Assembly (NCBI RefSeq): GCF_009914755.1
Contig: NC_060947.1
From: the human T2T-CHM13v2.0 reference genome, Homo sapiens
Direction: 5' to 3' (one strand)
DNA: 64,000 nucleotides
Shown here: positions 5,516 to 9,589 of the stretch, in pieces
Position numbering within the stretch: the stretch's first letter is position 1
Layout of the letters: the number at the start of each line of letters is the position of its first letter
Notes under the pieces: model-generated
What the model saw: only the letters and a program-made list of their open reading frames with translations
Told to the model about the DNA's origin: nothing
The model's database searches: none
Position numbers and translations under genes: made by a program

Positions 5516-5586
5516 TACCCTGGCAGCGGAAACAATACCCCAGAGCACCGATCGCTCACTGCAGAACTGTTCCCGCTGCTAGGGCA
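5516..5586 (-). ncRNA. MIR503: pre-miR-503 hairpin (5p at 5559-5581)
   Basis: Reverse complement UGCCCUAGCAGCGGGAACAGUUCUGCAG...CCGCUGCCAGGGUA; miR-15/16-like AGCAGC seed. Confidence 0.98.
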
Positions 5587-5801: not shown

Positions 5802-5899
5802 CCCCACCTTCTACCTTCCCCACGAGGGGGTATAGCAGCGCCTCACGTTTTGAACCATTTAGAACACTTCAAAACATGAATTGCTGCTGTATCCCCTCG
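5802..5899 (-). ncRNA. MIR424: pre-miR-424 hairpin (5p at 5868-5889, 3p at 5832-5852)
   Basis: Reverse complement contains CAGCAGCAAUUCAUGUUUUGAA and CAAAACGUGAGGCGCUGCUAU. Confidence 0.98.
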
Positions 5900-6358: not shown

Positions 6359-8395
6359 GGAAATGGACTCAGATGACTGAAAGAAAATAACCAAAACCTC
6401 ACCGGTAGCTTCAGCTGATTCTTACACTATCGTTGCGACATATACATCTATCTTTAAAAGCATTAGATGTCCTAACTCACTGCTAGTGTTTTTATTCTTA
6501 AACACCCCAGCTGAGTTATTTTAAAGAGCTCCAAACAATGACAGAGAACTTTCTGTAGATGAAATACCAGTTTACATATTAAACTGGTTACTCAAACTTA
6601 TTTATAATTTATACCTATCAATGTCATCTATCAAAACATAAATCAAAAAGTTTAAATACTTGATGTCAAGTCGCTCCTTCCTGTTTCAAGCAGCTCCACA
6701 GAAACTTTCATGTCCTGAAATGGCCGGCACTGCGCATACTCCTTAATGATTAACTCATTAGATACCACTTTTTCCTTTTTAAAATGGACACATATTAGCA
6801 ACAAGTCACATGCATGCCCTCTTTTTGTTTGAATACAATATTCAATTAAGCATTAAAAAAAAAACCCACTCTGAAATCCTCAATCACAAACCTAAAAGTT
6901 AAAACAACAAAATCAGCACTAACTGTAATGGTTTTGAAAGTTAAATACATTTCAGCACAAGTAATAGACATTTAAATTATCCAACTGTAAGTATCTTGTT
7001 ACACTTACAAATTAAGTCGGTTTTTCAAAACCAGTACAATGAATGTTAAGTGTCCTATTTATTAGTTAATAAAATGTGCAGAGTATTTAATAAGATTAAG
7101 TATCGAATTTATAACATCCAGACTGAGATCCAGTGGTAACAAATACACTATGTCATGGTAAAAAAAAAAAGTCATTAGTAACAATAACCCCATTCCCTAA
7201 ATTGCGACAATCAAGTATCTCTACATTCCATCTTGTTTTGGCAATGATATTTACAAACAACTTTTACACTGACTTTGGGATTAATGGAGAAAAATGTCGT
7301 TGACTGCCCTTAAAAAGAAAAAAAAAACATGTTTAGCAAATGTACAATTATCATGTAAAACTCCACAACTTTCTCCCAACATTTTGTTCCACACAAATAT
7401 ACGAGCCATCATGTCAGAAGTTAAAGTCATGCCTAATTTAACATTTCCTTAGTTGACTACTTAGAAAAACAAAAGTTCATTCGAAACAGCATCGGTGTCA
7501 AAGGCGAAGGTCCCTTCCAGATTGCTCTTGGAATCAAATTCATTTATACCTTTCACCCTAACCCCTTTCATCTCTCCCAGTGATAGTACAACGAGTTACA
7601 CCCCTAAAAAGCCACCTCGATCCCCTAGTTTACATATTTCCCCTTAGACTGAAATTTACTTACGAAAAGAGATTACAAAGGGGCGTCTTGTCACTTCAGG
7701 AGAGGGTCATTCACTGATACAATAGACAAAGAATCGATACTTTCGAGTTGCCATAGCCCCACCCCCTTCTGAACTGCAATGTGTTTGGCTAAATGATTTA
7801 AGAGCCAAAGAATACGCCTCTTCCTCTGTTCATACTCTACAACGTTTTGTCTTTTAATTTTGCATATGCCTTCGTCCCCCACACCCCAAACACACGATGT
7901 ACCTTCTCTCGGCGCATTCTAGCCAAACTTCCACAATGTCAAGTCCCTACGGGGAAAACTAAACAACCTTTAAAGTTTTAATTCGGGAGAGACAATGTGA
8001 AATTAATCACACATTTCTTTCCAAGACATAACTAACTTCTTGCAAATAAGAGGAAAAGTTCATTTACATTCTGTCAAAACCAGTCGCTCCCGACCCTAGC
8101 GAGGCTGACAGTCGGTCACTGCCCCTTACTCAGTTTTCTCTCCCCGCCCCTCCATGTTAGTTGTTGTTTTTTTTTTCCCAGTCCGTTTCCTGAGAATTTC
8201 CCGGCCGCACTCATTTGTTAAACACTTTAAATGTCAGATTTGCCCCCATCCCGCCCGCAAAACGTGCTTTACAACCCCCCCAAACGCCACAGCACTTTTT
8301 TCAGAATTATCACCAGATGTTTTTCTGCCTGCCGTAACCCACGTTACAGTCGGGAAAGACGCCAGCCACCAAGTCCCTTTTTAAAAAATCGCATG

Positions 8396-8452
8396 TCACC
8401 TCTGGCTCCACTCGAAAATGGCGCCGAAATCGAAGAACTTCTTAAATTTCAT
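8396..8452 (-). CDS. Candidate 18-aa micropeptide MKFKKFFDFGAIFEWSQR in the 5' part of the miR-424/503 primary transcript
   Basis: ATG at 8452 (GCAATGA, purine at -3) to TGA at 8398-8396. No other minus-strand ATG between 8453 and ~9330. Translation is not shown. Confidence 0.4.
   Translation of the reverse strand: MKFKKFFDFGAIFEWSQR
8415..8426 (+). promoter_or_regulatory. YY1-type motif AAAATGGCGCCG
   Basis: Matches the YY1 consensus AANATGGCG, typically found just downstream of CpG-island TSSs. Confidence 0.55.
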
Positions 8453-9589
8453 TGCAAGCTTTTTGCAAAGGTTTCTGGGATTTGCCTGCGAAGCTGTTTC
8501 GCCGCGTCCGAGAGCGAGCGAACGTGCAAGCCAGCGAGGGAGACAGGGAGGAAGGAAGGGCTGGGGAGGCGGAGAGACAGACCGAGCGAGCGACACACGG
8601 ACAGCGACGGACAGCGACAGAAGCGGGGCCCGGGACTTGGGAGACGGCGAGGTTGCGGGGCGCGAGGTGCTGGGCACGGAGCTACAGGGACGGAGAGCCG
8701 AGAGCCGGGGTCGCAGCGTGGAGGGGGCGCTGGCTGCTGCCGAAGCTGGGAGAGCGGCGTGGCGGAGGCGGAGCGGAGCCGAGCGAGGGGCCAGCACGGA
8801 ACGCTCCCTTGGAGGCGAGCGGCGCAGCCGGCGGAGAGGCTCCCGGAGCCGCCCTAGAAAAAGCCGGCTCGGGGGGCGTGGCCACGCGCTGTGGCGCTCC
8901 CCGCCCCCCGGTGGCCCCGCTCGGCTCCGGGGCCCGGGGGCGGAAGGGGGGAGGGGAGGAGAGGAGCTGTAGGGAAGGGGGTTGTGCAGGCGCTCGACGC
9001 CGCAGCCTTGGCCCGCTGCGGGGGAGGGCCGAGAAGGGCACTGGGCGCCCAGAGTAACCAACACCGAGACGAATAGCGAGGGCTCGGGGAGAAAAAACGG
9101 AGGATGGCAAACGGCAAAGCCAAGGGCACGAGGTAGCGCAGCGCGCACCCAGAGGCTCCTGGGACGGACACCACCCCACGCTCACGGGTCCTCTGGCGGT
9201 GTCCTTTGAGCTGCCGGGACGGCGCAAGGTGGCTGAGCGAAGCTTTTTGCTCGGTGCTTACAGGGAGTACCTGAGATGGTTTGGGAAAGGAAACAGGGGG
9301 TCTCAGACCGCTTGGGTGCAGCGCTCTCCCCATGCGTTTGAGTGCAGATCTGTCGAGACGCCCCAGCCCTCGCCACCCCACCAAGCTCTCAGGTAGAGAG
9401 GCCCCGGGACAGGGTGAGCCCCATAGTCCTTTGGTGGGCATAACACAGAGGGAGGAGCAATTGTTTACACATGTGCCCAGTACAAGAAGGGAAACTGATA
9501 TTTAAGACTGAAGTGGGGAAACGGGAGGGAAAGGAGCCCTTATCCTGGATGTTAGACGCTATTAAGGACCATGCTATTTTGTATTTGTG

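What the first reader, a model, noticed from the sequence alone, without database searches (positions are those of the whole stretch)
8396..8452. Candidate micropeptide MKFKKFFDFGAIFEWSQR heading the miR-424/503 primary transcript
Seen: ATG AAA TTT AAG AAG TTC TTC GAT TTC GGC GCC ATT TTC GAG TGG AGC CAG AGG TGA. It is the first minus-strand ATG for any transcript starting between 8453 and ~9330. It has a -3 purine and an abrupt composition shift from the GC-rich leader. The peptide is basic then aromatic-rich (5 Phe, 1 Trp). The stop overlaps a weak donor (GAG|GTGACA), so splicing could swap the C-terminus. Established: miR-424/503 belong to the miR-15/16 family, whose paralogous clusters sit in host genes such as DLEU2 and MIR497HG, and some pri-miRNAs encode miPEPs. 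Inference: a possibly ancient micropeptide or translated leader shared by miR-15/16 host genes, linking translation to cluster output.
Basis: partly seen in the sequence, partly recalled or inferred. Interest (0 to 1): 0.8.

Follow-up and report, generated by a model that had tools for sequence, protein, structure and literature searches.

The report
Chance ORF over shared promoter element
The 18-codon reading frame is real but no better than chance; what is conserved beneath it is a 21-base DNA element that three host genes of the miR-15/16 microRNA family share and that occurs nowhere else in the human genome.

Summary
The ORF at 8396-8452 (-) exists as described, but none of its features exceeds chance. 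About 40% of all ATGs in the window open ORFs of 18 or more codons, and 655 of 2000 dinucleotide shuffles of the 880-nt leader also lack an ATG.

The shared-micropeptide idea fails:
- A six-frame search of the genome finds only the ORF itself.
- The likely miPEP497 ORF and the published DLEU2-25aa ORF score no better than shuffles.

The ORF's core (FGAIFE) translates a 21-nt element, window 8409-8429 (-). At up to 2 mismatches this element occurs at only four genomic sites: here, DLEU2 exon 1, the SMC4 5' end, and a DLEU2 retrocopy. In all three loci it lies on the host strand, upstream of a miR-15/16-family cluster.

Identity is 21/21 and 20/21, wobble bases included, against 22-26% further out. 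The X ATG aligns with ACG in both paralogues, SMC4 has no in-frame ATG, and TGA follows the element in the other copies.

Most likely this is an E2F/YY1-type promoter-proximal element. It probably corresponds to the "highly conserved" E2F region of Llobet-Navas 2014. Translation of the ORF was not tested.

The parts
8396..8452 (-).
   Evidence: Its length and isolation are at chance level. No homologue was found in the genome.
8409..8429 (-). 21-nt element TTTCGGCGCCATTTTCGAGTG, shared with DLEU2 exon 1 and the SMC4 5' end. It encodes the FGAIFE core of the ORF.
   Evidence: four genomic sites at up to 2 mismatches, reversed control 0; only 3 more sites at exactly 3 mismatches against 13 control hits; 21/21 and 20/21 identity against 22-26% background, with third codon bases identical.
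8415..8423 (+). YY1-type core AAAATGGCG (GCCATTTT on the minus strand), next to the palindrome GGCGCC (8420-8425), which forms an E2F-like TTCGGCGC
   Evidence: Pattern scan; the consensus sequences are recalled. YY1 and E2F3 sites were predicted for the miR-424 promoter in PMC2797535 (passages).
8444..8454 (-). Block CAATGAAATTT holding the ORF's ATG. It aligns with TAACGAATTT in both DLEU2 and SMC4, so ATG in X corresponds to ACG in the paralogues.
   Evidence: MAFFT alignments.
8465..8481 (-). Upstream block ATCCCAGAAACCTTTGC, shared with the SMC4 side (ATCCCAGAAATCATTGC) at identical spacing. It resembles a ZNF143/Staf site (recalled consensus).
   Evidence: 14 of 19 in the scored window 8466-8484, binomial P about 1e-4. 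I count 15 of 17 for the core from the printed alignment.
8575..8582 (-). Tandem SMAD box GTCTGTCT, the only one in 8200-9300. It is the probable SMAD site of Llobet-Navas 2014 and serves to place the paper's 'E2F region' about 100 b downstream.
   Evidence: for the scan; for the paper passages. The match between this box and the paper's site is inferred, not shown.
8450..9250 (.). CpG-island bidirectional promoter. LINC00629 starts at 9212 (+). The upstream pri-miR-424/503 start sites lie on the minus strand.
   Evidence: Composition profile, the hub annotation, and PMC4015488.
5516..5899 (-). MIR424 (5816-5899 by Rfam mir-322) and MIR503 (5516-5586) hairpins, 2510 nt downstream of the element

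Best explanation
The ORF is an accidental reading frame, specific to the X copy, that lies across a deeply conserved promoter-proximal nucleotide element. It is not a conserved micropeptide.

The element is the 21-mer at 8409-8429 (-), with a weaker upstream block at 8465-8481. It sits in the 5' exon or core promoter of three host genes of miR-15/16-family clusters: pri-miR-424/503 on X, DLEU2 (miR-15a/16-1) and SMC4 (miR-15b/16-2). It is inherited from a common ancestral host 5' end.

It most likely works as DNA. I read it as a composite E2F-like/YY1-type site, TTCGGCGCC followed by CCATTTT, that ties transcription of these anti-proliferative clusters to cell-cycle and TGF-beta/SMAD input. 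[quoted passage not shown]

The Phe-rich core of the peptide is simply this element read in one frame. The X lineage has an ATG where the paralogues have ACG, and TGG where they have TGA.

- **Shown:** the sequence facts, genome-wide uniqueness, conservation at the nucleotide level, lack of a shared frame, and transcription of the element in DLEU2.
- **Inferred:** which factors bind, and that the element acts as DNA rather than RNA.
For: 1. **Uniqueness.** At up to 2 mismatches the 21-mer occurs at 4 sites in 3.1 Gb, and the reversed control gives 0. At up to 3 mismatches only 3 more sites appear, against 13 control hits.
2. **Position.** In all three loci it lies on the strand of the miRNA cluster and upstream of it, at 2510, 32769 and 4934 nt. 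SMC_N exons at C3:163177279 and C3:163207545 place the C3 site at the 5' end of an SMC gene. PMC3675212 Table 1 puts mir-15b/16-2 in an SMC4 intron.
3. **Sharp boundaries.** Identity is 21/21 with DLEU2 and 20/21 with SMC4, against 22-26% identity outside -70..+40.
4. **Constraint on bases, not on a peptide.** Third codon bases are identical in all three copies for the G, A, I, F and E codons. The only difference inside the element changes the residue (TTC to TTA, F to L). X has ATG where both paralogues have ACG. SMC4 has no in-frame ATG, the retrocopy's ATG is out of frame, and TGA follows the element in the 3 other copies.
5. **No peptide homology.** The genome-wide search finds only the ORF itself. 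The likely miPEP497 ORF gives 3167 of 5000 shuffles at or above its score, and DLEU2-25aa gives 533 of 2000.
6. **Chance-level ORF.**
7. **Motifs.** YY1-type and E2F-like cores are present. YY1 and E2F3 were predicted for this promoter. The published conserved E2F region fits the position.
8. **No RNA fold.** The consensus structure is -2.2 kcal/mol with 0 covarying pairs.
Against: - DLEU2 exon 1 also has an ATG-initiated ORF, 12 codons (MRSLSAFGAIFE*), in the same frame over the element. So 2 of 3 paralogues carry a short ORF there. My rough estimate of the chance of this is a few per cent, and I did not compute it.
- The element is transcribed in DLEU2. A spliced retrocopy carries it at least 43 nt from its 5' end. 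An RNA-level or translational role therefore cannot be excluded.
- No orthologues from other species could be examined, so conservation of the X ORF within mammals is untested.
- No ribosome-profiling, CAGE or ChIP data were available here.
- The supplement of Prel 2021 (Table S1, 32 MIRHGs with ribosome marks) could not be opened and might list MIR503HG.
- The factor assignments rest on recalled consensus sequences and one published prediction.
- MIR497HG, the fourth cluster host, lacks the element.
Confidence: 0.78

Rival explanations
1. The ORF is translated as a lineage-specific leader ORF of the TGF-beta-induced, upstream-initiated pri-miR-424/503 transcript. Its effect would be in cis (uORF-like, on stability, export or processing), or it would yield a young mammalian miPEP unrelated to other host-gene peptides.
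For: - It is the first ATG for any start site between 8453 and 9332, with a purine at -3.
- Llobet-Navas 2014 report a TGF-beta-induced TSS 181 nt upstream of the basal one, which would place the ATG inside the transcript.
- First-exon sORFs are translated in other MIRHGs: miPEP497 and miPEP155 and Dleu2-17aa.
- Dozier 2022 propose cis roles for pri-miRNA smORFs (passages).
- DLEU2 exon 1 has an ORF in the same frame.
Against: - The ORF's length and isolation are at chance level.
- The basal TSS in MCF-10A is said to lie downstream of the E2F sites. If those sites include the 21-mer, the basal transcript lacks the ATG.
- The region between the TSS and the cluster was amplified by overlapping PCRs. 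My inference is that the leader belongs to an unspliced, Drosha-cleaved nuclear transcript.
- Two searches (23 and 7 papers holding the terms; the listings read, plus passages of one paper from each) turned up no report of footprints or a peptide for MIR503HG.
- +4 is A, not G.
Confidence: 0.12
2. One reading: an ancient micropeptide, or a leader translated for its peptide, shared by the miR-15/16 host genes (DLEU2, MIR497HG and others).
For: - The six residues FGAIFE are shared in frame by ATG-initiated ORFs in X and in DLEU2 exon 1.
- Both other lncRNA hosts have published first-exon micropeptides.
Against: - The shared residues come from 21/21 base identity that includes every wobble position. 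Further out the flanks have diverged to random identity of 22-26%.
- The two ATGs are at non-homologous positions, and the N-termini are unrelated: MKFKKFFD against MRSLSA.
- SMC4 has no ATG and has L for F. The stop follows FGAIFE at once in the 3 other copies.
- The published peptides are other ORFs. DLEU2-25aa lies 43.5 kb away in the distal first exon. The likely miPEP497 ORF is unrelated.
- MIR497HG lacks the element.
- The genome-wide peptide search finds only the ORF itself.
Confidence: 0.02
3. The 21-mer acts as an RNA element in the 5' exon of the host transcripts, for example a protein-binding site that affects nuclear retention, splicing or Microprocessor access, rather than as a DNA site.
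For: - It is inside the spliced DLEU2 exon 1.
- On the SMC4 side it lies 110 nt upstream of a consensus donor, CAG|GTAAAG.
- In all three loci it is on the transcribed strand.
- 21 nt of perfect identity is longer than a single YY1 or E2F site needs.
Against: - There is no conserved fold and no covariation.
- The sequence matches two well-known DNA motifs.
- In X the published basal TSS may lie downstream of it.
- The second shared block lies further upstream, where a promoter site would be expected.
Confidence: 0.12

Closest known systems
miPEP497 (sORF66, 21 aa) in exon 1 of MIR497HG (Prel et al. 2021, PMC8038077; sections read, supplement not seen)
   Same: A short ATG ORF near the 5' end of a lncRNA that hosts a miR-15/16-family cluster. 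The size is similar (21 against 18 aa) and both are rich in aromatic residues.
   Different: - miPEP497 has ribosome marks and an active start codon, and is reported as conserved in primates and mice. The X ORF has none of these shown.
- There is no sequence similarity beyond composition: 3167 of 5000 shuffles reach the score.
- My identification of the ORF at C17:6920225 as sORF66 rests only on its being the sole 21-codon ORF upstream of MIR497 in the fetched 10 kb.
Dleu2-17aa / DLEU2-25aa (Tang et al. 2024, PMC10933344; passages and Methods read)
   Same: A micropeptide from the first exon of a miR-15/16 host lncRNA. It is linked to Smad3, and pri-miR-424/503 is itself driven by SMAD3/4.
   Different: - These are Arg/Gly-rich peptides.
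- The human ORF lies at C13:49346066 in the distal first exon, 43.5 kb upstream of the shared element.
- It has no similarity to the X peptide (533 of 2000 shuffles).
YY1 downstream core-promoter motif and its translational twin TISU (recalled: Xi et al. 2007; Elfakess and Dikstein 2008)
   Same: AAAATGGCG/GCCATTTT lies in a CpG-island promoter close to the start sites. The motif carries an ATG on one strand.
   Different: - Here 21 nt are fixed, far more than the roughly 12-nt motif.
- In DLEU2 the element lies at least 43 nt into the exon.
- Binding was not tested.
E2F-driven transcription of miR-15/16 clusters, and the conserved E2F region of the miR-424/503 promoter (Llobet-Navas 2014, PMC4015488; passages read)
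   Same: The position fits. The paper places two E2F motifs in a highly conserved region about 100 b downstream of the SMAD boxes, and the shared blocks lie 94-173 nt downstream of GTCTGTCT.
   Different: - In the passages I read, the paper does not mention that the sequence recurs in DLEU2 and SMC4.
- No strict TTTSSCGC site is present, only a 7-of-8 match by my count.
- The equivalence is inferred, because the figures and supplement were not available.
Duplicated conserved non-coding elements kept near paralogous genes (recalled: McEwen et al. 2006)
   Same: A short non-coding block is retained near paralogous loci in the same orientation, with flanks diverged to random identity.
   Different: - It is much shorter than the usual cut-offs for such elements.
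- It lies in a 5' exon or core promoter rather than a distal enhancer.
- The genes it accompanies are miRNA clusters whose hosts (one protein-coding gene, two lncRNAs) are not otherwise recognisably related. No trace of SMC4 exons was found in the other loci.

Membership tests
miPEP / lncRNA-encoded micropeptide | ATG-initiated short ORF present in a transcript that reaches ribosomes | tested here: inconclusive
   The ORF is present. No RefSeq transcript covers it (hub table).
miPEP / lncRNA-encoded micropeptide | Evidence of translation (ribosome footprints, tagged product or mass spectrometry) | not testable with these tools
   Two literature searches (23 and 7 papers holding the terms; listings read, plus passages of one paper from each) gave no report for MIR503HG. 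Table S1 of Prel 2021 was not seen.
miPEP / lncRNA-encoded micropeptide | Conservation of start, frame and residues with a coding substitution pattern | tested here: not met
   This was tested among human paralogues only. The ATG aligns with ACG. The frame is not shared by SMC4 or by the retrocopy. Wobble bases are invariant while the flanks further out are at random identity. Orthologues were not available.
   One search finds only the ORF itself. One search compared 1582 ORFs: the joint top score is the DLEU2 12-mer, which is explained by the DNA element, and the 21-codon MIR497HG ORF ranks 209 of 1582. In one search, 533 of 2000 shuffles reach the DLEU2-25aa score.
YY1 / E2F promoter-proximal binding site | Match to the consensus (recalled: AANATGGCG; TTTSSCGC) inside a CpG-island promoter | tested here: met
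   AAAATGGCG is at 8415-8423 (+). GGCGCC at 8420-8425 gives TTCGGCGC, which by my count is a 7-of-8 match to the E2F consensus. No strict E2F site is present. The CpG island is shown.
YY1 / E2F promoter-proximal binding site | Occupancy by the factor and an effect on transcription | not testable with these tools
   There is only a computational prediction of YY1 and E2F3 for the miR-424 promoter and the description of conserved E2F motifs in PMC4015488.
Paralogous conserved non-coding element | Identity far above neutral flanks between paralogous loci, with the same orientation and relative position | tested here: met
   21/21 and 20/21 identity against 22-26% background. The element is on the host strand and upstream of the cluster in all three loci. 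X and SMC4 share a second block at the same spacing (P about 1e-4).
Paralogous conserved non-coding element | Not a repeat or a generic motif: rare in the genome | tested here: met
   Searches show four sites at 0-1 mismatch, one of which is a processed DLEU2 retrocopy. The 101-nt context matches only itself.
Paralogous conserved non-coding element | Conservation in orthologues of each locus | not tested
   No other vertebrate genome is held. PMC4015488 calls the region highly conserved in a 28-species alignment, but its figure was not seen.

The most novel reading that the evidence does not exclude
The 21-mer, together with the ZNF143-like block at fixed spacing, is the surviving core of one ancestral host-gene 5' end. 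On this reading the proximal DLEU2 promoter and the pri-miR-424/503 promoter descend from the same unit as the SMC4 promoter. The miRNA clusters were copied together with their promoter and first exon. The element has been held base for base since before DLEU2 and SMC4 diverged, because it acts as a dedicated switch that co-regulates the miR-15/16 family. In the searches I could run, this shared element is not in print. The 21-mer string occurs in 0 papers. Four searches combining DLEU2 with SMC4, E2F1 or YY1 were judged from their listings and from passages of four of the papers, and showed nothing on it.
Probability: 0.5. Interest if true: 0.7.

Novelty: new member of a known kind. Interest (0 to 1): 0.45.

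Why it matters
As a micropeptide candidate this is ordinary and should not be taken further without Ribo-seq and comparative data.

The element beneath it is more useful. miR-15a/16-1, miR-15b/16-2 and miR-424/503 are growth-restraining clusters that are lost or silenced in leukaemia and other cancers. A genome-unique 21-nt sequence at the 5' end of all three hosts offers a concrete handle for asking how the family is co-regulated: the same small edit can be made at three loci.

It also bears on the origin of the lncRNA hosts. It suggests that DLEU2 and MIR503HG share a promoter and first exon with the protein-coding host SMC4.

More generally, it is a clear case of a short ORF whose apparent conservation is really conservation of an underlying DNA element.

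Tried and rejected
- **Genome-wide peptide search.** A six-frame search with the 18-aa peptide found only the ORF itself. An 18-residue query has little power, so I followed it with a focused comparison against 1582 ORFs in 100 kb of DLEU2 and MIR497HG sequence, with shuffles.
- **Fourth copy in MIR497HG.** I looked for a degenerate copy of the element in 20 kb around MIR497HG. The best match has 7 mismatches, the same as in 30 block shuffles, which range from 5 to 8.
- **RNA structure.** A consensus fold over the element in three paralogues gives -2.2 kcal/mol with no covariation.
- **Remnants of SMC4 coding exons.** I searched the X, DLEU2 and MIR497HG loci with 63 open frames. The best E-value is 0.006, which is noise. 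blastn found nothing at E <= 0.01.
- **Extended homology.** blastn-short of the X promoter against the paralogue loci finds only the 21-mer and a 17-mer. The second block is visible only in the anchored comparison.
- **Pfam.** A scan of three long GC-rich ORFs over the promoter returned 0 families.
- **Exact TSS.** I tried to get TSS coordinates from PMC4015488 and PMC2797535. Neither main text gives any.
- **My own errors.** One script failed because my element coordinates were off by two.
- **Not used.** Structure and complex prediction were not run, because the peptide is below their size limits and no binding claim is made.

Full report
**Observation**

The minus strand of 8396-8452 reads ATG AAA TTT AAG AAG TTC TTC GAT TTC GGC GCC ATT TTC GAG TGG AGC CAG AGG TGA, giving MKFKKFFDFGAIFEWSQR*. 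It is the only minus-strand ATG between 8395 and 9332. Its context is G at -3 and A at +4. It sits where a 69-82% GC CpG island drops to about 45% GC. The donor-like GAG|GTGACA over the stop is weak: 6 of 9 consensus positions by my count, and below the 7-of-9 cut. The description is therefore correct.

**Is it more than chance?**

No.
- About 40% of all ATGs in the window, on either strand, open ORFs of 18 or more codons (0.417 of 1114 and 0.393 of 1095). Local composition predicts P = 0.35.
- The 880-nt ATG-free leader contains only 99 A. Dinucleotide-preserving shuffles average 0.96 ATG, and 655 of 2000 have none.
- The 101 nt around the ORF are single-copy in the assembly.

**Transcript context**

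RefSeq starts MIR503HG at 5818, inside the MIR424 hairpin (Rfam places mir-322 at 5816-5899). Llobet-Navas et al. 2014 (PMC4015488; passages read) make several relevant points.
- They note that this 5' end matches the product left after pre-miR-424 is excised.
- They place the true promoter on the CpG island about 2 kb upstream.
[quoted passage not shown] The only tandem SMAD box in 8200-9300 is GTCTGTCT at 8575-8582 (-). The conserved E2F region should therefore lie at about 8410-8500, on top of the ORF. The ATG would be in the TGF-beta-induced transcript.

**Test of the shared-micropeptide idea**

Rfam mir-15 located the paralogous clusters:
- MIR16-1 and MIR15A at C13:49269562-49269790 (-)
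- MIR15B and MIR16-2 at C3:163179206-163179441 (+)
- MIR195 at C17:6918216-6918300 (-)

A six-frame search of the genome with the peptide returned only the ORF itself.

Prel et al. 2021 (PMC8038077; sections read) describe miPEP497, a 21-aa sORF in MIR497HG exon 1. The only 21-codon ATG ORF upstream of MIR497 in the 10 kb I fetched is at C17:6920225. Its similarity to the X peptide is a Trp/Phe-Glu-Trp triplet, and 3167 of 5000 shuffles reach that score.

Tang et al. 2024 (PMC10933344; passages and Methods read) describe Dleu2-17aa and human DLEU2-25aa, both Arg/Gly-rich. I located the human ORF at C13:49346066 by its length and composition. It is unrelated to the X peptide, with 533 of 2000 shuffles reaching its score.

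**What turned up instead**

Among 1582 ORFs compared, a joint top hit was a 12-codon ORF on DLEU2's strand, MRSLSAFGAIFE*. At the DNA level the match is an exact 21-mer, TTTCGGCGCCATTTTCGAGTG. It lies at window 8409-8429 (-).

At up to 2 mismatches this string occurs at four places in the 3.1-Gb assembly, and the reversed-pattern control gives 0:
- X, in this window
- C13:49302559-49302579 (-), exact
- C1:63424753-63424773 (+), exact
- C3:163174252-163174272 (+), one mismatch

At up to 3 mismatches only three more sites appear, each with exactly 3 mismatches, against 13 for the control.

The four sites can be identified as follows.
- **C3.** The site lies 4934 nt upstream of MIR15B and 3.0 kb upstream of the first SMC_N-coding exon. 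A CAG|GTAAAG donor follows 110 nt later. This is the 5' end of SMC4, the host of mir-15b/16-2 (PMC3675212 Table 1).
- **C13.** The site lies 32769 nt upstream of MIR15A in a CpG island.
- **C1.** The site is an intronless join of four DLEU2 segments at 95-99% identity, so it is a processed retrocopy. I recall its name as DLEU2L. It shows that C13:49302622-49302402 is a spliced DLEU2 exon 1, and that the element is transcribed there, at least 43 nt from the 5' end.
- **MIR497HG.** It has no copy.

**Nucleotide or peptide constraint?**

Anchored, ungapped comparison gives 21/21 identity (X against DLEU2) and 20/21 (X against SMC4). Identity outside -70..+40 is 22-26%, which is random.

The single difference inside the element changes the residue, TTC to TTA.

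The frame itself is not shared.
- Both MAFFT alignments put the X ATG opposite ACG in DLEU2 and SMC4, within a block TAACGAATTT.
- DLEU2's own ATG lies elsewhere, and its N-terminus is unrelated.
- SMC4 has no in-frame ATG.
- The retrocopy's ATG is out of frame.
- TGA follows the element in the three other copies, where X has TGG.

X and SMC4 share a second block at identical spacing, 14 of 19 positions in the scored window (P about 1e-4). It resembles a ZNF143/Staf site (recalled consensus).

There is no conserved RNA fold. The constraint is on bases, and the peptide's Phe-rich core is a by-product.

**Mechanism**

The element contains a YY1-type core (AAAATGGCG on the plus strand) and an E2F-like TTCGGCGCC around the palindrome GGCGCC (consensus sequences recalled). 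YY1 and E2F3 sites were predicted for the miR-424 promoter (PMC2797535). [quoted passage not shown]

I therefore read the element as a promoter-proximal DNA site that couples these clusters to cell-cycle and SMAD input.
- **Shown:** sequence, uniqueness, position and the pattern of conservation.
- **Inferred:** the binding factors, and action as DNA rather than RNA.

An RNA role stays open, because the element is exonic in DLEU2.

**Age**

Reviews state that miR-15a, 15b and 16 occur in all vertebrates and that miR-424/503 are mammalian (PMC7311568). The DLEU2-SMC4 identity therefore implies very long retention. No trace of SMC4 coding exons remains in the other loci.

**Is it in print?**

- The 21-mer string occurs in 0 papers of the library.
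- Four searches combining DLEU2 with SMC4, E2F1 or YY1 returned nothing on a shared element. This is judged from the listings and from passages of four of the papers (PMC6609241, PMC13434451, PMC3675212, PMC7311568).
- Two searches for MIR503HG with 'micropeptide' or 'ribosome profiling' gave no report of a peptide. This is judged from the listings and from passages of one paper from each.
- Subscription journals and supplements were not searched.

**Verdict**

The ORF is real but ordinary, and very probably not a conserved micropeptide. Its translation as an X-specific leader ORF is untested. The finding worth keeping is the genome-unique 21-nt element shared by three miR-15/16 host 5' ends.

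Noticed in passing
window 5802-5899 / 5818: The RefSeq 5' end of MIR503HG (5818) falls inside the MIR424 hairpin. PMC4015488 states that this cDNA's 5' end matches the cut left after pre-miR-424 is excised. The annotated start is therefore probably a processing product and not a TSS.
   Followed up: partly
window 8418-8972 (+): The ATG inside the YY1-like motif, on the strand opposite the host gene (gaaAATGg: A at -3, G at +4), opens a 184-codon ORF through the CpG island. It has no Pfam family. It is probably a by-product of the scarcity of stop codons in GC-rich sequence.
   Followed up: partly
A non-AUG start could in principle give long N-terminal extensions. This is probably a composition effect.
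   Followed up: no
   Followed up: no
L012 / G000:C13:49302402-49302622 (-): Three short ATG ORFs start in DLEU2 proximal exon 1 (12, 12 and 8 codons). The first overlies the shared element. None of them is the published DLEU2-25aa, which lies at C13:49346066 in the distal first exon.
   Followed up: partly
L023 / G000:C1:63424709-63425171 (+): A processed retrocopy of DLEU2 exons 1-4, at 95-99% identity and without introns. A 1-nt insertion puts the exon-1 ATG out of frame with the element.
   Followed up: yes
L022 (C3, about 95-130 nt upstream of the element) and L012 (C13, about 100-190 nt upstream): The SMC4 and DLEU2 promoters both carry GCGCATGCG-type palindromes (NRF1-like, recalled consensus) upstream of the element. 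SMC4 also has a second, canonical YY1-type AAGATGGCGG on the host strand (sequences). This may be further shared architecture or generic CpG-island content.
   Followed up: no
L008 / G000:C17:6920225 (-): This is the only 21-codon ATG ORF upstream of MIR497 in the fetched 10 kb, in the context agacggATGg. It is probably the published sORF66/miPEP497, identified by length only because the paper's figure was not available.
   Followed up: partly
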